From the NCBI GenBank assembly GCA_020348945.1, contig CP070759.1, forward strand, positions 1,172,074 through 1,204,612: 32,539 nucleotides of DNA. The letters run 5' to 3'. Source of the DNA: Candidatus Bathyarchaeota archaeon (GTDB taxonomy: Archaea; Thermoproteota; Bathyarchaeia; Bathyarchaeales; Bathyarchaeaceae). Within the stretch, counting starts at the first letter, position 1, and the number at the start of each line of letters is the position of its first letter. The translations under genes were made by a program, and so were the position numbers. Shown here piece by piece: positions 11,685-29,276 of this stretch. The notes beneath the pieces are model-generated. The model was not told the DNA's origin. It ran no database searches and saw only the letters and a list, made by a program, of their open reading frames with translations.

Positions 11685-12785
11685 CTAAGTCAATAGTTTT
11701 TCAGGGTTTTCTAAAGCCGTTTTCACGTTCTGCAGAAAACGCGCAGCAGGTGCCCCGTCCACTACACGATGGTCAAAGGACAAACTCAGACGCATCACAG
11801 GCTTAACCATGATTTTCCCATCCGCCACCACTGGTTTTTCTACTACCCTTCCAACACCCAGTATCGCATTTTCAGGCGGATTAATAATGGGTGTGAACAT
11901 GTCCACCCCAAACATACCGAGATTAGTGATGGTGAAGGTTCCGCCGCTCATCTCTTCCCTCGTGAGCTTTCCCTCTCTAGCTTTTTCCACAAGTTCTTTC
12001 AGTTTCGAGGAGACTTCTTTGAACCCTCTCTTGTCCGCTTTACGTATTACTGGAACAACCAGTCCATTCTCGGTAGCAACGGCGACGCCAACATTGACAT
12101 CCTCAAAGATCTTAATTTGATCTTTTTCCAGCGTAGAGTTCATGACAGGATGTTCGGTCAAAGCCTTGGCAACAGCTTTAACTAACACATCAGTATAAGA
12201 AAACTTGAATTTTTCACGCAGCTTCGCAGCGTTAGACATGTCCACTTCCATGGTTATGGTAATATGTGGAGCTGTTTGAGCGCTTAGAGAAACACGTTCC
12301 GCCGCAGTTTTTCTTATTCCAGTTAGTGATATAACCTCTCTCACTCTCAGCTCTACTTTCGCTTTCTTAACATTTTTCCTTATGTCCTCTTCAACGATTC
12401 TTCCATCGGGACCCGTACCCTCCACTTGGGCTAAATCTATGCCATACTCTCTCGCCAGTCTCTTGGCTGCTGGGGAGGCTACGATGCGCTTCTCAACTTT
12501 TTCTACAGGTGCTTCAGCGGCAGCTTCAACATCTGAAAGTTCTTCATCTGGTGCAGTTATGATGGCAAGTGTTTCAGCAACCGGAACGTCAACTCCTTCC
12601 TCTGCCAAAATCTTGCGAATAACTCCAGCGGTGGGCGCTTCCACTTCGTATGTCACCTTGTCAGAGAGCACTTCTACCAAGGGCTCTCCCTTCTCTACCT
12701 TCTCTCCTTCCTTCTTGAACCATTGAACAACAGTTCCCTCCTTCATGGTTAGACTAAGCCTAGGCATCATGACATTAGTTACCAA
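11685..12785 (-). CDS. pdhC: 2-oxoacid/acetoin dehydrogenase complex E2, dihydrolipoamide acyltransferase
   Basis: Single lipoyl domain (SDKV), E3-binding ASPAAKRLA...GTGPDGRI, catalytic SFDHRVVDG. Substrate specificity (pdh vs aco) is unresolved. Confidence 0.88.
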   Translation of the reverse strand: MVTNVMMPRLSLTMKEGTVVQWFKKEGEKVEKGEPLVEVLSDKVTYEVEAPTAGVIRKILAEEGVDVPVAETLAIITAPDEELSDVEAAAEAPVEKVEKRIVASPAAKRLAREYGIDLAQVEGTGPDGRIVEEDIRKNVKKAKVELRVREVISLTGIRKTAAERVSLSAQTAPHITITMEVDMSNAAKLREKFKFSYTDVLVKAVAKALTEHPVMNSTLEKDQIKIFEDVNVGVAVATENGLVVPVIRKADKRGFKEVSSKLKELVEKAREGKLTREEMSGGTFTITNLGMFGVDMFTPIINPPENAILGVGRVVEKPVVADGKIMVKPVMRLSLSFDHRVVDGAPAARFLQNVKTALENPEKLLT

Positions 12786-12805
12786 CTTAAACCTCCTCTC
12801 CTAAG

Positions 12806-13783
12806 TTAATGGACAACTTCCTTTACTGCCCCTATTATCTTGTTCTCGTCAGGTATAACAAATTTCTCCAAGGGAGGGCTGAAGGGTATGGGAGTGTCTG
12901 GTTCCGCCACCCTCTTAACCGGAGCATCAAGATAATCAATAGCTTCCTCTGCAACCACCGCCGATATCTCCGCACTAACACCTCCCGTCTTGCAGTCTTC
13001 TGTAACAATCACGATTCGACCCGTTTTCTTAACGGATTTCACAATCGTCTCCTTGTCTAGGGGAACAAGCGTCCTCGGATCAATAACTTCTGCGCTGATT
13101 CCCTGTTTAATAAGCTCTTCAGCTGCGGCGAGCGACTTGTGAACCATGTATAGAGTGGCAACAATCGTAACGTCCTCTCCTTCCCTCTTCACGTCTGCAA
13201 CACCCAACGGAACAGTGTACTCTTCTTTTGGAACAAGCTCTTTAATTGAATAAAGAAGTTTATGTTCAAAAAACATCACTGGATTATCGTCTCGTATCGC
13301 TGTTTTCAGCAATCCCTTTGCATCATAAGGAGTCGAAGGCACCGCAACTTTCAAGCCTGGAACGTGTATGAACCAAGCCTCCAAGCTTTGAGAATGATGC
13401 GCTGCAATGTTAACTCCAGCGCCGAAGGGCATTCGGATCACCAGAGGCACTTTAGTTTGACCTCCAAACATGTATCTCAGCTTGGCTGCTTGATTCGCAA
13501 TCTGATCCATAGCGAGGGTGGAAAGGTCTCCGAACATGATCTCGGCGACAGGTCTCATGCCAGTTATAGCTGCTCCAGTGGCAACTCCTATGATGGCTGA
13601 CTCTGAGATAGGAGTGTCTTGAACTCTCTCATCCCCAAACTCTTCTGCCAGCCCCTTCGTCACCTTGAAGGCACCTTTCCAGTACCGCCCAACGTCTTCG
13701 CCCAACACGAAAACCGTTTCGTCTCGAAGCATCTCCTCCCTCAAAGCTTCACGAAGAGCATCTCGATAAGTTATCTCTCTCAA
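12806..13783 (-). CDS. pdhB: 2-oxoacid/acetoin dehydrogenase E1 beta subunit
   Basis: LGEDVG, DTPISE, PVAEIMF, HHSQSLE, EVIDPRTLVPLD. Confidence 0.9.
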   Translation of the reverse strand: MREITYRDALREALREEMLRDETVFVLGEDVGRYWKGAFKVTKGLAEEFGDERVQDTPISESAIIGVATGAAITGMRPVAEIMFGDLSTLAMDQIANQAAKLRYMFGGQTKVPLVIRMPFGAGVNIAAHHSQSLEAWFIHVPGLKVAVPSTPYDAKGLLKTAIRDDNPVMFFEHKLLYSIKELVPKEEYTVPLGVADVKREGEDVTIVATLYMVHKSLAAAEELIKQGISAEVIDPRTLVPLDKETIVKSVKKTGRIVIVTEDCKTGGVSAEISAVVAEEAIDYLDAPVKRVAEPDTPIPFSPPLEKFVIPDENKIIGAVKEVVH

Positions 13784-13796
13784 CTTTCAACATCTC

Positions 13797-14756
13797 CTAG
13801 ATATACACGTGTTCGAGGGCTTCCTCTGGTGCTGGAAACGGACTCTCTACAGCAAACTTAACCGCATCTTCAACAGCAGCAGCAACATCTTGCTCAATCT
13901 TGTCAGCCTCCTCCTCAGTCAAGGTCTTCATTTCAAGAAGCCTCGCCCTGAATCGTGTGATGGGGTCTCTCTTCATCCATTCCTCAACCTCCTCTTTTGG
14001 TCGGTAAGTGGCAGGATCAAAACGGGAGTGCCCCTTATGCCGGTACGTCTTACACTCAATCAACGTAGGTCCCTTTCCACTCCTCGCCCGCTCAACAGCC
14101 TCACATGCAGCTTCATACACTGCCATCACGTCATTTCCATCCACAACCACACCGGGAATACCGTATGCTACACCTCGATCCGCCACATTCTCTATCGCCA
14201 TAACTCTTGACTGACGGGTTCCCATGGCGTAAAGGTTGTTTTCACACACAAACAGAACTGGAAGCTTCCAAAGTGCCGCCATGTTAATTCCCTCGTGAAA
14301 CGTCCCCTGATTGGAGGCGCCCTCGCCGAAGAAGCACGCCACAACCTGGTCAGTTTTCCTCAGTCTGATGGACAGACCTGCACCAGCAGCAATGGGAAGT
14401 CCAGCCCCCACAACAGCAGTGGCGCCCAGCATGCCTACACTGAAGTTTGCAATGTGCATGGACCCTCCCTTGCCCTTGCAGTAGCCTGTTTTCTTGCCCA
14501 AAATCTCAGCCATCACCCTGTTCAGTTGGGCGCCTTTGGCTATGCAATGGCCGTGTCCTCGGTGAGTGCTCGTTATGTAGTCGTCTCTTCTAAGGTTGGC
14601 ACACACCCCAACCGCCACTGCTTCCTGTCCAGCGTAAAGGTGTATGGTTCCTGGGACAAGGTTCTGGCCGTACAAATCATAAACTTTCTCTTCAAAGTGC
14701 CGGATTTCCAGCAGCTTCCTGTACATTTCAATTTTTTTTCTTTTTTCCAGCGTCAA
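13797..14756 (-). CDS. pdhA: 2-oxoacid/acetoin dehydrogenase E1 alpha subunit (TPP-dependent)
   Basis: HLYAGQEA, STHRGHGH, GKGGSMH, TPP motif GEGA...CENN, TYRHKGHS; GAGGAGG SD. Confidence 0.9.
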   Translation of the reverse strand: MTLEKRKKIEMYRKLLEIRHFEEKVYDLYGQNLVPGTIHLYAGQEAVAVGVCANLRRDDYITSTHRGHGHCIAKGAQLNRVMAEILGKKTGYCKGKGGSMHIANFSVGMLGATAVVGAGLPIAAGAGLSIRLRKTDQVVACFFGEGASNQGTFHEGINMAALWKLPVLFVCENNLYAMGTRQSRVMAIENVADRGVAYGIPGVVVDGNDVMAVYEAACEAVERARSGKGPTLIECKTYRHKGHSRFDPATYRPKEEVEEWMKRDPITRFRARLLEMKTLTEEEADKIEQDVAAAVEDAVKFAVESPFPAPEEALEHVYI

Positions 14757-21071: not shown

Positions 21072-21512
21072 TTGAAGCGAGAATATCCTACACAGCCTGT
21101 TGCAAGCGTTGGAGCACTCATCGTGCACGAGGGAAAGCTCCTCATCGTAAAAAGAGGAGTGGAACCATCAAAGGGCAAATGGAGCATTCCAGGCGGAGCC
21201 GTTGAACTCGGCGAGAGGATTCGAGATGCGCTCCTTCGAGAGGTAAAGGAAGAATGCGGCTTAGACGTGGAAATAGCGTTGGAAAAACCCATGGACGCCA
21301 TCGAAAACATCACAATAAGCAAAGATGGACGCCTCCAGTATCACTACGTTTTGCTACAGTTTCTAGCTCGACTCAAAGGAGGAATCCTAAAACCCGCAAG
21401 CGACGCGCTGGATGCCAAATGGGTTCCTTTAGACGAAGTGGAAAAATACGACTTAACAAAATCTTTTCGTTCATTCTTCCAAAAGCATCAAGATGAACTG
21501 AGAAAAGTTTAG
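21072..21512 (+). CDS. NUDIX hydrolase (ADP-ribose pyrophosphatase-like)
   Basis: Nudix box GGAVELGERIRDALLREVKEECG; AGGAGG SD. Confidence 0.9.
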   Translation: MKREYPTQPVASVGALIVHEGKLLIVKRGVEPSKGKWSIPGGAVELGERIRDALLREVKEECGLDVEIALEKPMDAIENITISKDGRLQYHYVLLQFLARLKGGILKPASDALDAKWVPLDEVEKYDLTKSFRSFFQKHQDELRKV

Positions 21513-22963
21513 TTCTTTTCGGTGAAGAAAAGCCTCGTATGTCCCATCGCTTGAACGTCAAGGGCCTTCACCCTAACAACAACAGGAAAATCTTTCACCG
21601 CCCTTCCAAGAACAAGACAGTGGCGAGGCGGCAAATCTCGTGCGACAGACTTCACTGTTTCAGCGTCCACCTTCGCAGCTCGAGACACGACTTCAAGATC
21701 ATGTTCGTTAGTGAAGTTGAAGAGAAACACATTGTCGGCTTGACGGTAGATGTTTTCCCGTATGGTGTTGGGCTGATTTGTCACGAAAGTGGTGAAAACT
21801 CCGAAGTGTCTCATCCTAGTAACGATGTCGTCCCAGTAAGTTTCGCGGAGGTAAAGATGTGCCTCTTCAGCAAAGAGAAAGACAGCTTTTATTTTCCACT
21901 GAGTTAACATCTCAACAAGCTTTCCAAGCACGTATTCCACCGCGACCTGTCGGTCCACCAAAGAAATGTCGTGCAGGTTTATGACCAAGGCCCCGCCGTT
22001 TCGAATTTTACGAAAGTTTTCCTCAAGACCATTCGCATCTGCTGGATTATCGGTGAAAAAACGGGAGTTCAAAAGACTGTAATAGCGGGAGAAGAGGGCG
22101 TCCCGTACGTGAGTATTGCATTTCCAGTTTTTTATAGTCTCACCGAGCTCATGTAGAGTGAGGGTGCCTTGCTCTTGGAGGAAACGCCATATGCGTCGAA
22201 ACTCTCGAGCAGAGGTTCCTGGAAGGTGAAGAGCGTGGATAAGGATGTCCAGCATAACCCGCAATTTCATCTGGGGAAGTGTCATCTTAAGGTTGTCTCC
22301 TGGGGTGAGCGCTTGAATCTTGCTGAAATGTTCATTTTTTTCTCCATTCGAAGAGAAGCCTAGGTGGGTGTACTCACCGTTGAGGTCTAAAACAACCACC
22401 ATGGCTCCATGATCAATGAGTCCCATGACCAACAGCTTGGAGAGATGGGATTTCCCTGTTTCCTTCTTTCCAGTTACGATGTTCAGTCTTCCGTCTAGAG
22501 TCTGAGCGTCAATGTTGAACTGGGACAATTCCCTTGTCTCACCGAGCTGGATAGGAAGATCAGCGCTTATCTTTGCAAGGGTTAGGAGGGATGTTGTTGG
22601 AAGCTTTTTGATTGTGGACTGGGAACGAGAGGGAAGCCACGAGGCGGTTACCCTTAACTTTCCATCTTCCATGGTTCCGCGAATCTTGCAAACGAGCAAC
22701 CGTGAATCTTGGATATACGCCACATGGGAGATTACCCCTAACGGGTCAAAACTTTCCTCGTGAACAAGATCGTTAGTGGTGGAATTTCGCAGAAGCTCTT
22801 CTAAGATGCCGGGAACGTTGGCGAACTGGACGTCGATTACTTGAGTGATCAAGCTTCTACGAGTTGCAGGGTCTTCTATGAGGAGGTATTCTCCCTTCTC
22901 AACGTTCTCGGTTGGAAGAGCTAGAATTTGAACCGTGTTTCCCTCTTTTCTGTAAAGTCGCAT
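21509..22963 (-). CDS. herA: HerA/FtsK-family (DUF87) ATPase / DNA translocase
   Basis: Walker A GKKETGKS, DLNGEY, Walker B FLFAEEAH, RMRHFG, VTNQP; beta-rich N-terminus. Start MRLYRKEG at 22963, 2 nt after the nurA stop. Confidence 0.8.
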   Translation of the reverse strand: MRLYRKEGNTVQILALPTENVEKGEYLLIEDPATRRSLITQVIDVQFANVPGILEELLRNSTTNDLVHEESFDPLGVISHVAYIQDSRLLVCKIRGTMEDGKLRVTASWLPSRSQSTIKKLPTTSLLTLAKISADLPIQLGETRELSQFNIDAQTLDGRLNIVTGKKETGKSHLSKLLVMGLIDHGAMVVVLDLNGEYTHLGFSSNGEKNEHFSKIQALTPGDNLKMTLPQMKLRVMLDILIHALHLPGTSAREFRRIWRFLQEQGTLTLHELGETIKNWKCNTHVRDALFSRYYSLLNSRFFTDNPADANGLEENFRKIRNGGALVINLHDISLVDRQVAVEYVLGKLVEMLTQWKIKAVFLFAEEAHLYLRETYWDDIVTRMRHFGVFTTFVTNQPNTIRENIYRQADNVFLFNFTNEHDLEVVSRAAKVDAETVKSVARDLPPRHCLVLGRAVKDFPVVVRVKALDVQAMGHTRLFFTEKN

Positions 22964-22965
22964 CG

Positions 22966-24063
22966 CTAATCCTCTGAGCCCTTTCCGAAAAGTCCGAAAA
23001 GAAGTCGACGCACATTTGGCCGCGTAACCATTTTCAGCCCACATTTTTGAGCTATGAAGCGTTGAATGCCTATCACTTCGTTGGCGGTGAAAGTTGAAAA
23101 TATGTGAGCCAAACGTAAAGTTTCGGGATAACTCTGAAGAAACATGTCGTTCCCAAGAAGTCTCTGGACGGCTTCTAATCCATGTTCCCACGAAATCTCT
23201 CTGTCAATGTCCAACCGAAAAGAACAGCTTCCCTTGGTGAGCTTAGCCACAAAAATGTTTCCTAGAAGACACATTGTACCCGAAGTATGGGCAGGGAAAT
23301 CGTTGAATTTGAGCAGGTAAGGCGGTGAACACTTCCCCGATAGGTCAGTCAGTCGATGTCCGGAAAGCCTTAGGCGAGTGATCTTAGAGAACGCCAAGAC
23401 CGTGTTTAGGCGGTTTCTGGCGACTTTCAAGAGTTGAGAAACAACGTTCACTGGACTGTCTATTGTTCCAGCGGTCAGGGAGCCGTCCCAAAGGATGACG
23501 CTTCGATGTAGGGAACAACTGATACCCATCTGAAGCCACCGTTCAAGCAGATTGCACATTCGATTTTGCATGTTAATGAGGCTGGGAGTGTTAGTCTCTC
23601 CTGAACCTTTAAAACAGAATTGTCTGAGCATGCCGTAAATTTCCCGCTTATTTTCCTCTGTTATGTGGAATGGAAATGGCCCGATGCGGAGGCATCTGTA
23701 TCTCCTTTTTTCCCTCCAAACTACAGCTCCCCTCAAGGCGCACAACACTCCGGTTTCGGTTTCTCCAACTTTTATGCTGGAAACGTCCACGGCAACGACC
23801 GTAGTGTCATCGAGAAGGGGTTTCAAGGGTACAGATCGTAACGTGCAGGAGTTGTGATGTGGAAAAGCTAGTGTAATGTTTTCTGTGCTTTCTTTGGCGG
23901 GTTCGTAAGGTGTTATTTCGTTGGGCTGAAAATATTCTCCGTTGATTTTCTTCATGGATCTAAGGCTGAATTCGATGAACCGTTGTGGGAGTTGCAGGTC
24001 TTCGAGGGATTGTGGAAAATTATATTTTGGTGTTGTTGCATAATGTAATTGTTCAATCAACAA
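22966..24063 (-). CDS. nurA: NurA-family nuclease
   Basis: VAVDVSS, ILWDGSL, AFSK, FRLDI, YPETLRLAH; GGTGA SD; directly upstream of herA. Confidence 0.78.
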   Translation of the reverse strand: MLIEQLHYATTPKYNFPQSLEDLQLPQRFIEFSLRSMKKINGEYFQPNEITPYEPAKESTENITLAFPHHNSCTLRSVPLKPLLDDTTVVAVDVSSIKVGETETGVLCALRGAVVWREKRRYRCLRIGPFPFHITEENKREIYGMLRQFCFKGSGETNTPSLINMQNRMCNLLERWLQMGISCSLHRSVILWDGSLTAGTIDSPVNVVSQLLKVARNRLNTVLAFSKITRLRLSGHRLTDLSGKCSPPYLLKFNDFPAHTSGTMCLLGNIFVAKLTKGSCSFRLDIDREISWEHGLEAVQRLLGNDMFLQSYPETLRLAHIFSTFTANEVIGIQRFIAQKCGLKMVTRPNVRRLLFGLFGKGSED

Positions 24064-24097
24064 TATTCACCAATTTGCAGTTTATGGAGGTACTGAG

Positions 24098-24129
24098 TAT
24101 TTAAATATTGCGCATGAACAACATGTTCA
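24098..24129. promoter_or_regulatory. Divergent promoter: palindromic TATA plus inverted repeat
   Basis: TATTTAAATA (24098-24107) and TGAACA-ACA-TGTTCA (24115-24129) between nurA (-) and wHTH gene A (+). Confidence 0.55.
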
Positions 24130-24156
24130 ATACAATAAACAATAAGGGACACAAAC

Positions 24157-24567
24157 ATGTCAGAAGAACCAAAAACTCCAATCCGCCTCAAAATGAAAAT
24201 TGGAAACATGGAGTTCGAAATCGAATGCCGAGAAGACCAACTGGAAAAGACAGTTAAAAAAATCTTATCAACAGTCAAAGAGTACGCCAGAGAGCCAATA
24301 ATGATGCCAGAACGAAGATTGCCCCCCGCGAGAGGTGAAACCTGCAAGGGACTCATACAGAAACTTTGGTCAGAAGGCTGGTTCGCGTCTCCCCGAGGAC
24401 TCGGAGAAGTGCACAGTGAAATGGCACGAAGAGGCTACCACTACGACCGCACCGCAGTGGCACACGCCCTCATCGACTTGGTTAAAGATGGCCTACTAAC
24501 AAGAGAGGGAAGACCTCGCCGTTACCGTTACGCCCAGAAAAGACCTCCACTGACCAGTCAGGTTTGA
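24157..24567 (+). CDS. Winged-helix protein A (N-terminal beta-hairpin/helix plus C-terminal wHTH)
   Basis: IRLKMKIGNMEFEIEC...; PRGLGEVHSEMARRGYHYDRTAVAHALIDLVKDGLLTREG..RYRY. Paralogous to 25536..25949. Confidence 0.78.
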   Translation: MSEEPKTPIRLKMKIGNMEFEIECREDQLEKTVKKILSTVKEYAREPIMMPERRLPPARGETCKGLIQKLWSEGWFASPRGLGEVHSEMARRGYHYDRTAVAHALIDLVKDGLLTREGRPRRYRYAQKRPPLTSQV

Positions 24568-25064
24568 ATCTTTTCCCGAATTTTTAGCAGAATTCCTTCT
24601 TGTAAACGCTTAATCCCAATGGTAGTTATTTTATAATCGCCTTCATCGGTTTTTGTTGCCATTCCTTCCCGACAGAGTTCACTCAGTCGTGTGCTCGTGA
24701 TTTTGGAGCTTTTTCCAAGTCGTGTTTGCAGTTCTTCCTTGGAGAAAGAATTTCCGTTCAAGTGTCCAAGTTTATGGCCTATGTGAGCGGCTAAGAGATA
24801 TAGTTGGATGGTTTCGCTGTCCGTGAGCTTTTGTTTAGAGATGAGAATCTCGGGGCCTTCAGGAGCAATTGCAATGACGCCCTCAACGTTTTCGATGAGT
24901 TTTTGAAGGTCAACGGTGAGCATCACCTTGCGCGCTACATGAAAGGAAGGAATCATTTGGGTGAAGAAACGGTTGACGCTAACCCAAACATCATCTACAT
25001 TACCAACAAACGTTTGTTCAACATCCCTGTACTTAACCTGAACAGTTATCTTCTCTTCACTCAA
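24558..25064 (-). CDS. Winged-helix protein B
   Basis: ITVQVKYRDVEQTFVG...; EGPEIL...KLTDSETI...TRLSELCREGMATK...YKITTIG. Paralogous to 25066..25533. Confidence 0.75.
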   Translation of the reverse strand: MSEEKITVQVKYRDVEQTFVGNVDDVWVSVNRFFTQMIPSFHVARKVMLTVDLQKLIENVEGVIAIAPEGPEILISKQKLTDSETIQLYLLAAHIGHKLGHLNGNSFSKEELQTRLGKSSKITSTRLSELCREGMATKTDEGDYKITTIGIKRLQEGILLKIREKIQT

Positions 25065-25065
25065 C

Positions 25066-25533
25066 TCATTGCCCTCGAAGCTTAGCTAGCAGCTCTTCCT
25101 CAACCCACCTTTCGCCTTGTACAGTTAACTTGAACTCCGGTCTAGACGGGTCTGGTTTAAACACCATTCCCCGCTTGGTCATCTCGTTGAGACGTGCCGG
25201 CACCATAGATTTGATTCCGCTTGAACTGAGCAGTCGGCTGATTTTGGTAGCGGTGCTGACTTTTTCTTCAGAAGCATATAAGACCAGACCAATGGCTTCG
25301 TAGTGGGTTAGCTTTCCTCGAGTAGTTATTACTGGTCCTTCCGTGGTAAGTTCAACGATTCCCTCAAGCTGCGCTTTTATTGGTGGAGCAAGTTTTGTGG
25401 AAACTAGACTGCTTATTTCGCTCATAAACTGGGCGGGCATGGTTCTCAGCGTCTCAAGGATTTCTTGGGCGTTGTCTCCCTCCAAAACTATCTCGCCAAA
25501 AGGAGTTTTGATCTTCACCTGAATCTTTCCCAT
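25066..25533 (-). CDS. Winged-helix protein C
   Basis: IQVKIKTPFGEIVLEG...; EGPVIT...KLTHYEAI...ARLNEMTKRGMVFK...FKLTVQG. ATG 25533 follows AAGGAG. Confidence 0.75.
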   Translation of the reverse strand: MGKIQVKIKTPFGEIVLEGDNAQEILETLRTMPAQFMSEISSLVSTKLAPPIKAQLEGIVELTTEGPVITTRGKLTHYEAIGLVLYASEEKVSTATKISRLLSSSGIKSMVPARLNEMTKRGMVFKPDPSRPEFKLTVQGERWVEEELLAKLRGQ

Positions 25534-25535
25534 GT

Positions 25536-25949
25536 TTATGTCTCCTTTCCAGCCAAAGTGTATACGTAACCCTTTTTCGTTTTCCACCTTTTAATCCTGC
25601 CTTTCTTAACAAGCCACACGAGCACCCCGGAGAGGGTGGTAGCTGGATAGTGTGCCGTATTTGCCTTCATGGCTTCCACCAGTTCAGGCAGGGTTCTGGG
25701 CTGCTGTTTTCCCCAGTCTGTTTCAAGTAGCTTCAAAACTGTTTCACTGCAGTTCGCGGAAGACGATATGGTTGGATAGAGTGGGAGAGTAGATTGAGGC
25801 AGAGTTACGTTGATGTTGGCTGTATCAAAAGCTTTGGAAACGTTTGCCACCAGACTGGGAAGTTCCTCGATAGTTTTTATGACTTCCTCACGTGTTCCAC
25901 TAATCTCTATCTCATGACTGCCGAATTTAACACGAAGTGAAAATGGCAT
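25536..25949 (-). CDS. Winged-helix protein D
   Basis: LRVKFGSHEIEISG...; PRTLPELVEAMKANTAHYPATTLSGVLVWLVKKGRIKR...YVY. ATG 25949 follows GGAG. Confidence 0.75.
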   Translation of the reverse strand: MPFSLRVKFGSHEIEISGTREEVIKTIEELPSLVANVSKAFDTANINVTLPQSTLPLYPTISSSANCSETVLKLLETDWGKQQPRTLPELVEAMKANTAHYPATTLSGVLVWLVKKGRIKRWKTKKGYVYTLAGKET

Positions 25950-26041: not shown

Positions 26042-27940
26042 TTAAACGAGGTCTTTCAACTTTCTTTTCAATGTTTCGCTAACTGACTCAACCTTGACTC
26101 GTCCTCGGGTTCTCTTCATAACCATGCCCATGAGGGGCCCAAAAGCACCCTCTTTTCTCTCTTCTATCAAGCTTCTGTTTTCTCTTATCAAATCATCTAT
26201 TATTTTTTCCAGTTCCTCTTGTGAAATCATAGTCAACCCCAGACTTTTAACAGCCTCCTTCGCTGTAGCGTTCTCATTTTTCGACAGCCAAGTAATGCTG
26301 TCTGATATTGCTTCCTTAGCGGTTTCTCCGGCGTCCACAAGATGAAACAGCTCTTTCAACTGCTCATCACTAACCTTCTCCACTTCGATTCCATCGCGTC
26401 TCAAGGCCTTCATGGTCTCCGTTAACGCAACCGCTATGACAGTGGGAGAAACCTTGGTTTCCTGAGCCAGCGCTTCAAATAAATCCGTGTACTGTGAATT
26501 CAGAATTTGCCTCACCAGCTTAAGATTTAAACCGTACTCTTTTGTTAAGCGCTTCATCTTCTGCTCGGGCAACTCCGGAAGACAAGCGCGCAGATTTTCC
26601 ACATGATCTTCACTCAACTGGATTGGAGGAACATCAGTCTCCGGATACATTCGAGCAGCCCCAGGCCTCGGACGCATGTACCGGGTAGTCCCATCTAGGT
26701 TTGCCGCACGCGTTTCTTCAGGAACTCCCATCACCGCCTCTCTAGCTCTCTGCGTCACGACTTCAATGGCGTCGTTTGCGTTTTCCACACTATCCGCCAC
26801 GAATACAACAGCATCTTGGGGTTCCGCTTTCACAAGCTTCTTTAGATCTTCTGTTTCTTTGACGGTTACTCCATAGGCTGGAAGCTCATCCGTGTGAAAG
26901 ATTCCGCCTACCCTTCCCCAGAAACGAGCAATGTCTGCCATTTCCATTCCAAGCCTCATGCCAGGAGCTAGCTCCATCTTGAGTAGCCCAGCAAACATGG
27001 GCAGTTTGACCGCTAACACAAGCTGGTTTTGGCTGACTGCTTTTTGGATGACTCGACACTTTGTTTGCTTGAAAATGGGTGTAACGTCCACGAACTCGTC
27101 TTTGATGATCTTTTCTGTTACTCCGCGTTTTTTCAACTCAGCTTTTATCTTGAGGAGACCGAGCTGGCGCTGAACCTCATACTCGACAGCCTTCGAGACC
27201 AGTTCAAGCTGTTGAACTCCCTTAATTTCGGTTAGAGCTCCGTCTCGAATTGATATGTTCAGGTCTTGGCGAATGGTTCCTAGTCCTCGCCTAACCTTTC
27301 GTGTGGCTCTCATTACTCGCCCGATAGCTAGAGCGGTTTTTTCCGCTTCCTGAGGAGAATAGATGACTGGCGCTGTGGTGACCTCAATGAGGGGAATTCC
27401 GAGGCGGTCGATTCGATATCGAATGACAGAGTCTTTTTTCACCATTTTTCTAGCAGCGTCTTCTTCAAGACTTACGTGTTGTATGGGAACTTTTTTTCCT
27501 TCAATGTCCAGTTCTCCGTCAAGAGCAATGACGCATGTTCGCTGGAAGCCTGTGGTGTTCGATCCGTCTATAACGGTTTTGCGCATCACATGTATTTCAT
27601 CCACGGATTTGGCGTTCATCATGAGTGCAGCTGTGAGGGCGATTTCCACTGCTTCTCGATTAAGGTCGTGAGGGGGCTCCTCATCCATCTCTACGAGGCA
27701 CGAGGTTTCTCTGTTCGCTTCGTACAGTATTTTCACGCCTTTCTGAAACTCGAAGAAGGCTGCTGGATCAATTTGCCCCAACTCGCTCTGAGTAGGTCTT
27801 AGCCTCCTTAGAAACGTGATTTCTGATTCTTCTTTGAAGAGTTTAGGCTTGCAGGAGCAGAAGAGTTTTGTCTCTGTGTCGAGTTGCTGATGCACTTCAA
27901 GCCCGATTTTTAGTCCAACTTTTGGATAATTGATGTTCAT
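26042..27940 (-). CDS. gatE: Glutamyl-tRNA(Gln) amidotransferase subunit E
   Basis: KIGLEVHQQL, LRPTQSELG, RKTVIDGSNTTGFQRT, LEEDAAR, GTIRQDLN, RPRPGAARMYPETD. Confidence 0.96.
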   Translation of the reverse strand: MNINYPKVGLKIGLEVHQQLDTETKLFCSCKPKLFKEESEITFLRRLRPTQSELGQIDPAAFFEFQKGVKILYEANRETSCLVEMDEEPPHDLNREAVEIALTAALMMNAKSVDEIHVMRKTVIDGSNTTGFQRTCVIALDGELDIEGKKVPIQHVSLEEDAARKMVKKDSVIRYRIDRLGIPLIEVTTAPVIYSPQEAEKTALAIGRVMRATRKVRRGLGTIRQDLNISIRDGALTEIKGVQQLELVSKAVEYEVQRQLGLLKIKAELKKRGVTEKIIKDEFVDVTPIFKQTKCRVIQKAVSQNQLVLAVKLPMFAGLLKMELAPGMRLGMEMADIARFWGRVGGIFHTDELPAYGVTVKETEDLKKLVKAEPQDAVVFVADSVENANDAIEVVTQRAREAVMGVPEETRAANLDGTTRYMRPRPGAARMYPETDVPPIQLSEDHVENLRACLPELPEQKMKRLTKEYGLNLKLVRQILNSQYTDLFEALAQETKVSPTVIAVALTETMKALRRDGIEVEKVSDEQLKELFHLVDAGETAKEAISDSITWLSKNENATAKEAVKSLGLTMISQEELEKIIDDLIRENRSLIEERKEGAFGPLMGMVMKRTRGRVKVESVSETLKRKLKDLV

Positions 27941-27947
27941 TTGTTGT

Positions 27948-29276
27948 TTACTCCTCTTCTTCAGGAGTGGTTCTGGGCGAGATTTCGTGAGCTATGTTTG
28001 CGGTGAGAAGCTTTTTAACTTCTTCAACATCCTTGGTTTGTCCTAGGACCCACATGAGTTTCACTAGGGCGGTTTCGGGCAGCATGTCTTCAAGCGGGAT
28101 CACTCCCATTGCTAAAAGGTCTCGACCTGTGTCGTAAACGTTCATGCCTAAACGTCCCCAAATACACTGCGAGGTCATGGCGACAACCACATCGTTTTTA
28201 ACAGCCTTCCTAATCGCTGGGAAACAGTAGTTGCTCACGTGGCCAAGTCCTGTTCCCTCGAGGACAATGCCCCTGTAACCTTCTTCAATGTGCCACTCGA
28301 GGATTTTAGGATTTAAACCTAGATGAAACTTGACTAGCGCCACTTTTTCATCAAAGTCTGGTTTCAGAACCAGTTTTCGTGAGGAGTCACGCTGACAATA
28401 ATCATCCACCAACATGGTGATCTTCTCGTTTTCTATCCTAGCGAGCGGTGAGGTGTTCACGGATTGAAAAGTGTCCCGTCGACTCGTGTGACATTTTCTA
28501 ACCTTAGTTCCCCGATGGAACACGATGGAAGCGTCCGAAATCGTTTCGTGCATAGCTAAGACCACCTCGGCAAAGGGAGCCCACGCAGCCGCCCTTACAG
28601 CACCTATCAGGTTGGTTGCAGCATCTGAACTAGGGCGGTCAGCGGATCGTTGGGAACCCACCATTATCACAGGCACTGGCAGATTTTGAAGTGTGAAGCT
28701 TAAGGCGGCTGAGGTGTATGCCATGGTGTCGGTTCCATGGGGTACCACGACTCCTGCTGCGCCTTTTTGGATGTGTTTGGCGACGGTTTTGGCTGTTTCT
28801 GACCAGTGCTTCGCTGTGATGTTTTCGCTGTAAAGGCTGAAAAGAATCTGTGCGTCTATTGTGGCGACTTCTGAGAGTTCCGGAACAACGCTGTAGAGGT
28901 CGCTTGCGGAGAGGGCGGAGCGTACTCCTCCTGTTCGGTAGTCCACTCGGCTGGCGATGGTGCCTCCGGTGCTGATGATTGCCACTTTAGGTAATTCTGG
29001 TTTTTGTTTTGGAAGCGGTGGCGGTGTGAAAGTGGGTTTGGCTCCTACTCCGATTTTTTCGATTTGTGTGTTGAGGGTGATGTTGATTCCTATGTTGTAG
29101 CCGCTTTTCATCTTAATTACAACGTGCTTTTCATCGCCATATTCGGATCTGGGAATGAGGATGCCCTCGTAGGTTTTCGCGTCTTTCGTGATGCGGATAA
29201 GGTCGCCGATTTCAGCTCCAGCTTTCCTCAGAACTTGTAATGCTTTTCCTTTATATCCTGGAAAACCTTCGCTCAA
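27948..29276 (-). CDS. gatD: Glutamyl-tRNA(Gln) amidotransferase subunit D
   Basis: KMKSGYNIG, STGGTIASRVDYRTG, HGTDTM, GSQRSADRPSSD, RKCHTSRRD; adjacent to gatE. Confidence 0.96.
   Translation of the reverse strand: MSEGFPGYKGKALQVLRKAGAEIGDLIRITKDAKTYEGILIPRSEYGDEKHVVIKMKSGYNIGINITLNTQIEKIGVGAKPTFTPPPLPKQKPELPKVAIISTGGTIASRVDYRTGGVRSALSASDLYSVVPELSEVATIDAQILFSLYSENITAKHWSETAKTVAKHIQKGAAGVVVPHGTDTMAYTSAALSFTLQNLPVPVIMVGSQRSADRPSSDAATNLIGAVRAAAWAPFAEVVLAMHETISDASIVFHRGTKVRKCHTSRRDTFQSVNTSPLARIENEKITMLVDDYCQRDSSRKLVLKPDFDEKVALVKFHLGLNPKILEWHIEEGYRGIVLEGTGLGHVSNYCFPAIRKAVKNDVVVAMTSQCIWGRLGMNVYDTGRDLLAMGVIPLEDMLPETALVKLMWVLGQTKDVEEVKKLLTANIAHEISPRTTPEEEE

What the first reader, a model, noticed from the sequence alone, without database searches (positions are those of the whole stretch)
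21509..25949. Candidate undescribed DNA-processing/chromatin module: stand-alone nurA-herA linked to four winged-helix proteins
Seen: nurA and herA are tightly coupled (2-nt gap) and have no mre11 or rad50 beside them. They share a 93-nt divergent promoter with wHTH gene A, which converges (10-nt overlap) on the operon D-C-B (gaps of 2 and 1 nt) downstream of gatE. Established: archaeal NurA-HerA usually resects DNA ends with Mre11-Rad50, and HerA-nuclease pairs also occur in defence systems. Inference: the wHTH proteins form a heteromeric DNA-binding adaptor or regulator that directs this nuclease-translocase in repair, segregation or anti-MGE activity. The housekeeping neighbourhood favours a core chromosomal role over a mobile defence island.
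Basis: partly seen in the sequence, partly recalled or inferred. Interest (0 to 1): 0.8.

Follow-up and report, generated by a model that had tools for sequence, protein, structure and literature searches.

The report
Winged-helix partners of a NurA-HerA machine
An uncultured Bathyarchaeia archaeon encodes a very divergent DNA nuclease-motor pair (NurA-HerA) beside four related small DNA-binding proteins of an unnamed family, a pairing kept across many archaeal lineages, which points to undescribed helper parts of the archaeal DNA-break repair machine.

Summary
The gene layout is exactly as described. The window is from a Bathyarchaeia genome.

- **Enzymes:** HerA and NurA are real but very divergent, and they keep their ATPase and nuclease motifs.
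- **Small proteins:** A to D are paralogues with an N-terminal beta-hairpin/helix module and a PadR/MarR-like winged helix. They have no Pfam family.
- **Linkage to A:** A lies divergently beside nurA in 64 of 64 orthologous loci.
- **Linkage to B/C/D:** In other orders and families the genes form one operon, C-B-(D)-nurA-herA. This held in 14 of 17 assessable loci.
- **Fusion:** One genome fuses a HerA ATPase core to a C-type domain.
- **Not truly stand-alone:** In 13 of 91 related loci, including the closest relatives, mre11-rad50 follow herA directly.

Best reading: a break-repair NurA-HerA variant with dedicated winged-helix partners or regulators. Physical binding is not shown. No paper describing this was found. 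The scan has noted the same module before on other DNA: 29 notes in at least 26 genomes. I rate it a new variant of a known kind.

The parts
21509..22963 (-). herA (HerA1 clade), 484 aa hexameric-type translocase ATPase
   Evidence: PF01935 E 2e-10. PDB 4d2i HerA E 2.4e-5. Walker A G165..G170-K171-S172, D193, Walker B E366-E367-A368 and R385 are kept in 28/28 clade members. Orthologues are 63-87% identical in 80 loci.
22966..24063 (-). nurA (NurA1 clade), 365 aa RNase-H-fold nuclease, 2 nt upstream of herA
   Evidence: PF09376 matches 65 of 73 orthologues. D93, D193-G194, K227, Y312-P313 and A319-H320 are shared with classical NurA. Adjacent to herA in 69 of 69 loci.
24064..24156 (.). 93-nt divergent promoter/operator region between nurA and A
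   Evidence: Length is 87-103 nt in 65 loci and most positions are conserved. Features: three TATTG repeats, core TTGTNCATGCRCAA, TATA-like TTTAAATA, and GGTGA before the nurA start. The triple repeat and the core each occur once in the 1.72-Mb genome.
24157..24567 (+). A: 136 aa, beta-hairpin + long helix + linker + winged helix
   Evidence: Model pLDDT 77. Only generic winged-helix matches were found. The family has 1828 clusters, none carrying a functional name or a Pfam domain. Divergently adjacent to nurA in 64 of 64 loci.
24558..25064 (-). B: 168 aa, B/C-type paralogue
   Evidence: hhalign to C: 96%, E 3e-9, 147 columns. The N-domain is shared with A (81.5%, E 1e-5).
25066..25533 (-). 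C: 155 aa; hairpin, helices, second hairpin, winged helix, C-terminal helix
   Evidence: Model pLDDT 82. Residues 70-155 resemble PadR/MarR/F93-type winged helices (best Z 10.2, rmsd 2.5, 79 aligned). Orthologues are 61-91% identical.
25536..25949 (-). D: 137 aa, A-type paralogue
   Evidence: A against D in the own genome: E 8.5e-7, 30% identity. In other orders a D-type gene sits directly upstream of nurA.
26042..29276 (-). gatE-gatD (context), upstream of and co-directional with D-C-B
   Evidence: gatD Pfam match. gatE-gatD recur beside the module in several lineages.
21072..21512 (+). Nudix hydrolase (context), convergent on herA
   Evidence: PF00293 E 5.4e-19. Within 700 nt of herA in 60 of 75 loci. 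In the closest relatives it lies between herA and mre11.

Best explanation
This is the local, rearranged form of an old archaeal gene module. A deeply divergent NurA nuclease and HerA translocase are encoded together with two to four small paralogous proteins. Each small protein has an N-terminal beta-hairpin/helix module and a C-terminal PadR/MarR-like winged helix.

Shown:
- The enzymes keep their catalytic motifs.
- The small genes travel with nurA-herA across families and across HerA clades.
- In some lineages all of them form one operon that runs on into mre11-rad50.

Inferred:
- NurA-HerA resects DNA ends in double-strand-break repair, as the classical pair does.
- The winged-helix proteins are its dedicated partners.
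- A most likely binds the unique conserved repeats in the 93-nt region between A and nurA, and so controls both promoters.
- B, C and D most likely pair through their shared N-terminal modules into a mixed DNA-binding assembly. That assembly would load, target or restrain the nuclease-motor on DNA.
For: Adjacency in close relatives:
- nurA is next to herA in 69/69 loci and A is next to nurA in 64/64 loci.
- At least two of B/C/D lie within 10 kb in 36/47 loci.

Phylum sample of 301 genomes:
- 84 genomes have a strong A match. Of these, 68 hold HerA1, and in 65 of the 68 it lies within 4 kb on the same contig.
- The other 16 belong to four families. In all 5 of their loci examined, A lies beside another NurA-HerA clade.

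Operon form: among loci chosen by herA alone, C-B-(B)-(D) lie directly upstream of nurA in 14 of 17 assessable loci.

Joint presence and absence in the window's own order:
- 23 of 34 genomes have both A and HerA1, 11 have neither, and none has only one.
- B was not found in 8 of 10 of the lacking genomes tested. D was not found in 0 of 5... that is, in none of the 5 tested.

Fusion: a 468-aa protein joins a HerA ATPase core (PF01935, 3.4e-18), a coiled coil and a C-type domain (3.9e-20).

Link to repair: mre11-rad50 lie directly downstream of herA in 13 of 91 loci.

Catalytic motifs are kept. The intergenic region is conserved and unique in the genome.
Against: - No physical interaction is shown.
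- The winged helices resemble ordinary transcription factors. A divergent promoter with a conserved site is the classic layout for a simple local regulator.
- C persists in 10 of the 11 same-order genomes that lack A and HerA1. It stands alone or directly after gatE, so it has some role without the enzymes.
- C was not found in 4 of the 23 same-order genomes that hold A and HerA1.
- In close relatives the gap between A and B ranges from -3 to 4006 nt. In 11 of 47 loci, B/C/D are more than 10 kb away.
- Three herA-clade loci have no winged-helix neighbour.
- B/C-type domains are also fused to a protein kinase and to DUF488, so the domain is not exclusive to HerA.
Confidence: 0.55

Rival explanations
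1. The four proteins are only transcription factors. A, perhaps with B, C and D, represses or activates the nurA-herA (and mre11-rad50) repair genes, for instance after DNA damage. They never touch the enzymes.
For: - The winged helices are closest to the PadR, MarR, BlaI and Fur regulators.
- A shares a divergent promoter whose repeats are conserved in 65 loci and occur once in the genome.
- C survives without the enzymes.
Against: - Two to four paralogous regulators kept in fixed order inside one operon, across families and across HerA clades, is unusual for regulators.
- A HerA::C-type fusion protein exists.
- A (48-93%) and C (61-91%) are at least as conserved as NurA (44-83%).
Confidence: 0.28
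2. The module is an anti-virus or anti-plasmid system. The winged-helix proteins sense foreign DNA and NurA-HerA degrades it, as in the bacterial HerA-effector defence systems.
For: - The HerA gives weak, partial matches to defence-type HerA models (best mad8 7.8e-15 in PADLOC; HerA_antiphage 8.3e-13 against a cut-off of 800 bits).
- The module is missing from some genomes of the same order.
Against: - No defence model matches NurA, A, C or D, and B gives only two marginal PADLOC matches (E 0.003-0.004).
- The neighbours are metabolic and housekeeping genes.
- The position next to gatDE and Nudix is stable, and HerA identity is 63-87% across 80 loci. This speaks for vertical descent.
- mre11-rad50 are directly attached in relatives.
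Confidence: 0.07
3. Only A is tied to nurA-herA in this genome. D-C-B is a separate operon, perhaps serving gatDE or general DNA organisation, and lies nearby through inherited gene order alone.
For: - The A-B gap is variable, and D-C-B lie more than 10 kb away in 11 of 47 loci.
- C alone stays directly after gatE in genomes without the enzymes.
Against: - In other orders and families, C and B are translationally packed directly upstream of nurA.
- B and D disappear together with A, nurA and herA.
- A HerA::C-type fusion exists.
Confidence: 0.1

Closest known systems
Classical archaeal HerA-NurA end-resection complex with Mre11-Rad50 (herA-mre11-rad50-nurA operons of Sulfolobus, Pyrococcus, Thermococcus; PDB 4D2I)
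   Same: - The same two enzyme families, with catalytic motifs kept.
- nurA and herA are tightly coupled.
- mre11-rad50 lie directly downstream in 13 of 91 related loci.
   Different: - The HerA forms its own clade, on a long branch away from Mre11-linked HerA (quick tree, SH-aLRT 100).
- NCBI HerA equivalog scores are far below their cut-offs.
- Two to four winged-helix genes belong to the module. These are not mentioned in the passages I read of a 2026 NurA review, which has no occurrence of 'winged' or 'Bathyarchae'.
- In this genome, mre11-rad50 have moved elsewhere.
Bacterial HerA-effector anti-phage systems (Sir2-HerA, DUF4297-HerA)
   Same: A HerA-type ATPase paired with a nuclease or other effector. 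There are superfamily-level matches.
   Different: - No Sir2 or DUF4297 effector is present.
- The effector is a NurA with classical motifs.
- The context is chromosomal and housekeeping.
- The winged-helix partners are absent from those systems, as far as I recall. This was not tested.
PadR/MarR/BlaI-type winged-helix regulators and small archaeal or viral winged-helix proteins (F93, AspA, Sso10a)
   Same: - The C-terminal 80 residues of C align to them at Z 8.5-10.2.
- The winged helix of A matches BlaI, Fur and HOP2 weakly.
   Different: - No Pfam family cut-off is reached.
- The N-terminal hairpin/helix module, and in B and C a second hairpin, have no match found.
- The genes occur as paralogue sets tied to NurA-HerA.
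Phage terminase (small DNA-recognition subunit plus ATPase/RNase-H-fold nuclease large subunit). This is an analogy recalled from memory only.
   Same: The division of labour would be the same: an oligomeric winged-helix or HTH DNA recogniser, a translocating ATPase and an RNase-H-fold nuclease.
   Different: No homology was tested or claimed. There are no virus genes nearby.

Membership tests
HerA (FtsK-HerA superfamily, PF01935) | Match to the HerA central ATPase domain above the curated cut-off | tested here: met
   41.6 bits against a cut-off of 23.2, E 2e-10.
HerA (FtsK-HerA superfamily, PF01935) | Walker A, Walker B (EEAH) and a conserved arginine | tested here: met
   G170, K171, E366, E367, A368 and R385 are kept in 28/28 clade members and 20/20 members of other clades.
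HerA (FtsK-HerA superfamily, PF01935) | N-terminal HAS-barrel domain | tested here: inconclusive
   No PF09378 match for this protein. The second HerA of the genome gives only a weak match, E 0.037. No structure was predicted.
Classical break-repair HerA (NCBIfam equivalogs NF040819, NF040937) | Score above the equivalog cut-off | tested here: not met
   29.9 bits against 970, and 22.1 bits against 800. It is also a separate clade in the tree.
NurA (PF09376) | Match to the NurA domain | tested here: met
   The window protein scores 19.8 bits against 21, with full-length coverage 2-249 of 254. 65 of 73 orthologues match, best 6e-11. The own-genome scan reaches 21.4 bits when neighbouring pieces in the frame are added.
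NurA (PF09376) | Conserved acidic, DG and histidine motif residues | tested here: met
   D93, D193-G194, K227, Y312-P313 and A319-H320 are kept in 17/17 clade members and in most of 12 classical or second-clade NurA. A conserved 'DG' active site is named in the review passages I read.
Mre11-Rad50-HerA-NurA repair operon | mre11 and rad50 adjacent to herA/nurA | tested here: not met
   Not adjacent in this window; they lie at G000:C1:950611 onwards. The feature is met in 13 of 91 related loci.
Catalogued anti-phage systems (PADLOC) | Matches to all components of a listed system | tested here: not met
   Only partial HerA superfamily matches were found. There was nothing for NurA, A, C or D, and only two marginal matches (E 0.003-0.004) for B.
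Winged-helix DNA-binding fold | Three helices plus a beta wing | tested here: met
   In the A model these are H63-72, H82-91, H98-110 and E114-127. C residues 70-155 give Z 10.2 to QsrR and 9.9 to F93.
Named winged-helix families (Penicillinase_R, GntR, HVO_A0261_N) | Score above the Pfam cut-off | tested here: not met
   A: 15.3 bits against 22.6. D: 18.7 against 22.6. B: 19.5 against 35. C: no match.

The most novel reading that the evidence does not exclude
The paralogous winged-helix proteins assemble through their hairpin/helix modules into a mixed ring or platform. This platform docks on the NurA-HerA nuclease-motor and gives it a defined DNA entry site or structure specificity. It would be a so far unknown holoenzyme form of archaeal DNA-end processing, working much as a terminase small subunit guides its ATPase-nuclease.
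Probability: 0.3. Interest if true: 0.8.

Novelty: new variant of a known kind. Interest (0 to 1): 0.62.

Why it matters
HerA-NurA with Mre11-Rad50 is regarded as the minimal archaeal machinery that starts homologous recombination. Here a large part of one archaeal phylum keeps two to four extra, unnamed DNA-binding proteins in the same operon:
- 100 of 301 sampled genomes carry this HerA clade.
- A further four families carry another clade with the same partners.

If these proteins are subunits or loaders, the 'minimal' picture is incomplete for abundant sediment and soil archaea. A new protein family, with 2148 representative clusters for the B/C type, would also gain a function. The idea is directly testable with recombinant proteins.

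Tried and rejected
- **Complex prediction.** NurA + C + B + A, with A as the partner, scored 0.00. The verdict was 'no answer'.
- **RNA runs.** No RNA holder was listed for the locus.
- **The listing of cluster members.** Only unnamed family codes are given here.
- **Search for longer fused forms.** A B/C profile found one unrelated protein. The tool itself calls this weak evidence.
- **NurA against the PDB.** The NurA profile gave no hit. The single sequence gave weak encapsulin matches (E about 1e-3 over 68 residues), which I take to be chance.
- **Structure searches.** Foldseek and VIA-align gave only generic winged-helix matches.
- **ESM Atlas.** Nearly all nearest clusters are named 'hypothetical protein'; one lower-ranked cluster near A (score 0.92) carries a Penicillinase repressor name on 16% of its members.
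- **Second-module gene wH2.** It could not be shown to belong to the A family (hhalign 30%).
- **'A-bearing families without HerA'.** I considered this as an exception and dropped it. Those loci hold a third NurA-HerA clade that my first profiles missed.
- **Truncated rad50.** I considered this and dropped it. The frame runs into a run of N.
- **HerA tree.** The careful tree search did not finish, so the quick tree is what I report.
- **Paper supplements.** These were closed. Gene-context tables of the cited papers may hold relevant neighbours that I could not see.
Full report
**Observation.**
- herA is at 21509-22963 and nurA at 22966-24063, both on the minus strand and 2 nt apart.
- A is at 24157-24567 on the plus strand, 93 nt from the nurA start.
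- B (24558-25064), C (25066-25533) and D (25536-25949) are on the minus strand. The gaps are 1 and 2 nt, and B overlaps the end of A by 10 nt.
- gatE and gatD lie upstream of D on the same strand.
- The window is G000:C1:1172074-1204612 of a single-contig 1.72-Mb genome.
- Of the 80 best related loci, 79 are titled Bathyarchaeota or Bathyarchaeia. One is labelled as a Krumholzibacteriaceae bacterium, probably a binning error.
- The neighbours are metabolic or housekeeping: 2-oxoacid dehydrogenase E1/E2, transglutaminase, 2-hydroxyacid dehydrogenase, UbiA, SIS, Nudix, GatD and a radical-SAM enzyme.

**The enzymes.**
- HerA matches PF01935 (E 2e-10) and Sulfolobus HerA 4D2I (E 2.4e-5). It falls far below the NCBI HerA equivalog cut-offs.
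- Its Walker A, Walker B and conserved arginine are kept in 28 of 28 clade members.
- NurA alone is just under the Pfam cut-off (19.8 bits against 21). However, 65 of 73 orthologues match, best 6e-11.
- D93, D193-G194, K227, Y312-P313 and A319-H320 are shared with classical NurA.
- Both enzymes are therefore predicted to be active.

**The small proteins.**
- The AlphaFold model of A (pLDDT 77) shows a beta-hairpin, a long helix, a disordered linker and a winged helix.
- The model of C (pLDDT 82) shows a hairpin, helices, a second hairpin, a winged helix and a C-terminal helix.
- Structure searches give only generic winged-helix regulators. The best for C is QsrR (Z 10.2, rmsd 2.5, 79 residues). 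F93, PadR, MarR and AspA follow closely.
- C and B are full-length paralogues (hhalign 96%, E 3e-9).
- A shares the N-terminal module with B (81.5%, E 1e-5). A is homologous to D (E 8.5e-7).
- None reaches a Pfam cut-off.
- The A family has 1828 clusters at 90% identity, none carrying a functional name beyond one stray 'acyl carrier protein phosphodiesterase' label.
- The B/C superfamily has 2148 representative clusters at E<=1e-3.
- Atlas neighbours are almost all unnamed clusters; one lower-ranked cluster near A is called 'Penicillinase repressor domain-containing protein', and all are from Bathyarchaeota and Nitrososphaerota.

**Linkage in close relatives.** These counts come from the 80 herA-orthologue loci.
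- nurA is adjacent in 69 of 69 assessable loci.
- A is divergently adjacent in 64 of 64.
- Nudix is within 700 nt in 60 of 75.
- At least two of B/C/D lie within 10 kb in 36 of 47, with an A-B gap of -3 to 4006 nt.
- In 5 of 5 genomes without a nearby trio, D-C-B sit together elsewhere. In one of them they are only about 10 kb away.

**Linkage in a phylum sample of 301 genomes.**
- The A profile gives 84 strong matches, and HerA of this clade is in 100 genomes.
- 68 genomes have both. In 65 of these the two genes lie within 4 kb on the same contig. The other three have the genes at contig ends.
- The 16 A-bearing genomes without this HerA belong to four families. In all 5 of their loci examined, A lies divergently beside a NurA (PF09376, 1e-13 to 1e-23) and a HerA of a third clade, with C-B-B next to it.
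- The 32 genomes with this HerA but no strong A were sampled at 18 loci. In 14 of 17 assessable loci, C-B-(B)-(D) lie packed directly upstream of nurA on the same strand, several times right after gatD-gatE. One locus is cut by a contig end and three have no such neighbour.
- The window's layout is therefore a rearranged version of an older single operon.

**Joint presence and absence in the window's own order.**
- 23 of 34 sampled genomes hold both A and this HerA. 11 hold neither. None holds just one.
- Of the 11 lacking genomes, B was sought in 10 and not found in 8. The hits in G167 and G181 fall on the C gene.
- D was sought in 5 and found in none.
- G058 carries C-B-B-D followed by a distant NurA-HerA pair.
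- Against a strict complex: C is still present in 10 of the 11, alone or directly after gatE. C was also not found in 4 of the 23 module-bearing genomes.

**Fusion.** In G010 a 468-aa frame joins three parts:
- a HerA ATPase core (PF01935, 3.4e-18, with Walker A and B);
- a coiled coil;
- a C-type domain (my profile, 3.9e-20).

This is the strongest hint of physical coupling. Other fusions join the B/C domain to a protein kinase (P0122) and to DUF488 (P0243).

**Relation to the classical system.**
- The genome has a second pair, orc1 <> wHTH-nurA2-herA2 >< MarR-like gene, conserved in relatives.
- Weak relatives of that HerA2 in other lineages sit in nurA-herA-mre11-rad50 operons.
- In a quick IQ-TREE of 48 rows that I chose, the 28 HerA of the window's clade form one side of a branch with SH-aLRT 100 and length about 4.7. 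The Mre11-linked HerA, the orc1-linked HerA and a third group lie on the other side. The groups were partly defined by the searches that found them.
- Even so, mre11 and a 703-aa rad50 lie co-directionally just after herA in 13 of 91 loci with enough downstream sequence. These include the closest relatives (herA, convergent Nudix, mre11, rad50) and another order (gatE-C-B-D-nurA-herA-mre11-rad50, with a 21-nt gap).
- In the window's genome, mre11-rad50 sit at 950 kb.
- 'Stand-alone' is thus a local rearrangement, and break repair is the likeliest role.

**Control region.**
- The 93-nt A-nurA spacer is 87-103 nt long in 65 loci and conserved at most positions.
- Its features are three TATTG repeats, a core TTGTNCATGCRCAA, TTTAAATA about 42 nt before the nurA start, and GGTGA just before that start.
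- The triple repeat and the core each occur once in the whole genome. This fits a locus-specific operator.

**Rivals.**
- *Pure regulators* remain quite possible. See the fold matches and the promoter layout above.
- *A defence role* is unlikely. PADLOC matches are only superfamily-level for HerA, absent for NurA, A, C and D, and marginal (E 0.003-0.004) for B, and the context is stable and housekeeping.
- The complex prediction gave no answer, and no RNA run was listed.

**Literature.**
- Six searches found no description of winged-helix partners of NurA-HerA.
- I also read passages of five papers: PMC7554672, PMC9905601, PMC13707971, PMC5682000 and PMC13748450. None describes such partners.
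- The 2026 NurA review has no occurrence of 'winged' or 'Bathyarchae'.
- Supplements were closed.

**Earlier notes of this scan.** The same module has been reported on other DNA: 29 notes in at least 26 genomes. I read these only after my own analysis, and they agree with it.

**Verdict.** This is a new variant of the HerA-NurA(-Mre11-Rad50) system with an undescribed family of winged-helix partners.

Noticed in passing
G000:C1:346900-353100 (L004:7200-13075): A second NurA-HerA pair in the same genome. A 145-aa winged-helix gene, nurA2 and herA2 lie in one direction, divergent from orc1/cdc6 and convergent on a MarR/TrmB-like gene. The layout is conserved in relatives. The small gene could not be shown to belong to the A family.
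   Followed up: partly
L015:3631-11046 (G000:C1:948600-956000): mre11-rad50 of this genome lie beside a CAP12/Pycsar-type TIR-domain gene (L015:4518-5429) and a family-B DNA polymerase. The rad50 frame runs into a run of N, so its apparent truncation is not real.
   Followed up: partly
L119:4268-6778 (G022): A HerA of the third clade carries an intein (Intein_splicing, 5.9e-20) inside its ATPase domain.
   Followed up: no
L171:7775-9178 (G010:C16): A 468-aa fusion of a HerA ATPase core, a coiled coil and a C-type winged-helix domain, in a small (0.9 Mb) genome. It lies next to a prolyl-tRNA-synthetase-like gene.
   Followed up: partly
P0122, P0243, P0196, P0197: The B/C-type domain also occurs fused to a Ser/Thr protein kinase (P0122), to DUF488 (P0243), and to an unknown 200-residue N-terminal region (P0196, P0197).
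   Followed up: partly
window 26042-29276 and loci L113, L120, L127, L133, L136-L139, L176: gatD-gatE recur next to the winged-helix genes or to herA in several families, in different relative positions. In genomes that lost the module, C remains directly after gatE. The reason is unknown.
   Followed up: partly
L115, L116, L119, L123, L124, L130: A third NurA-HerA clade, not found by profiles of the window's clade, is also flanked by A- or D-type and C-B-B genes.
   Followed up: partly
window 11685-14756: A complete 2-oxoacid dehydrogenase E1-alpha, E1-beta and E2 gene set lies on the minus strand.
   Followed up: no
whole genome G000: The marker-based completeness estimate is only 78.7% for a single-contig 1.72-Mb genome. 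The marker set probably fits this lineage poorly.
   Followed up: no
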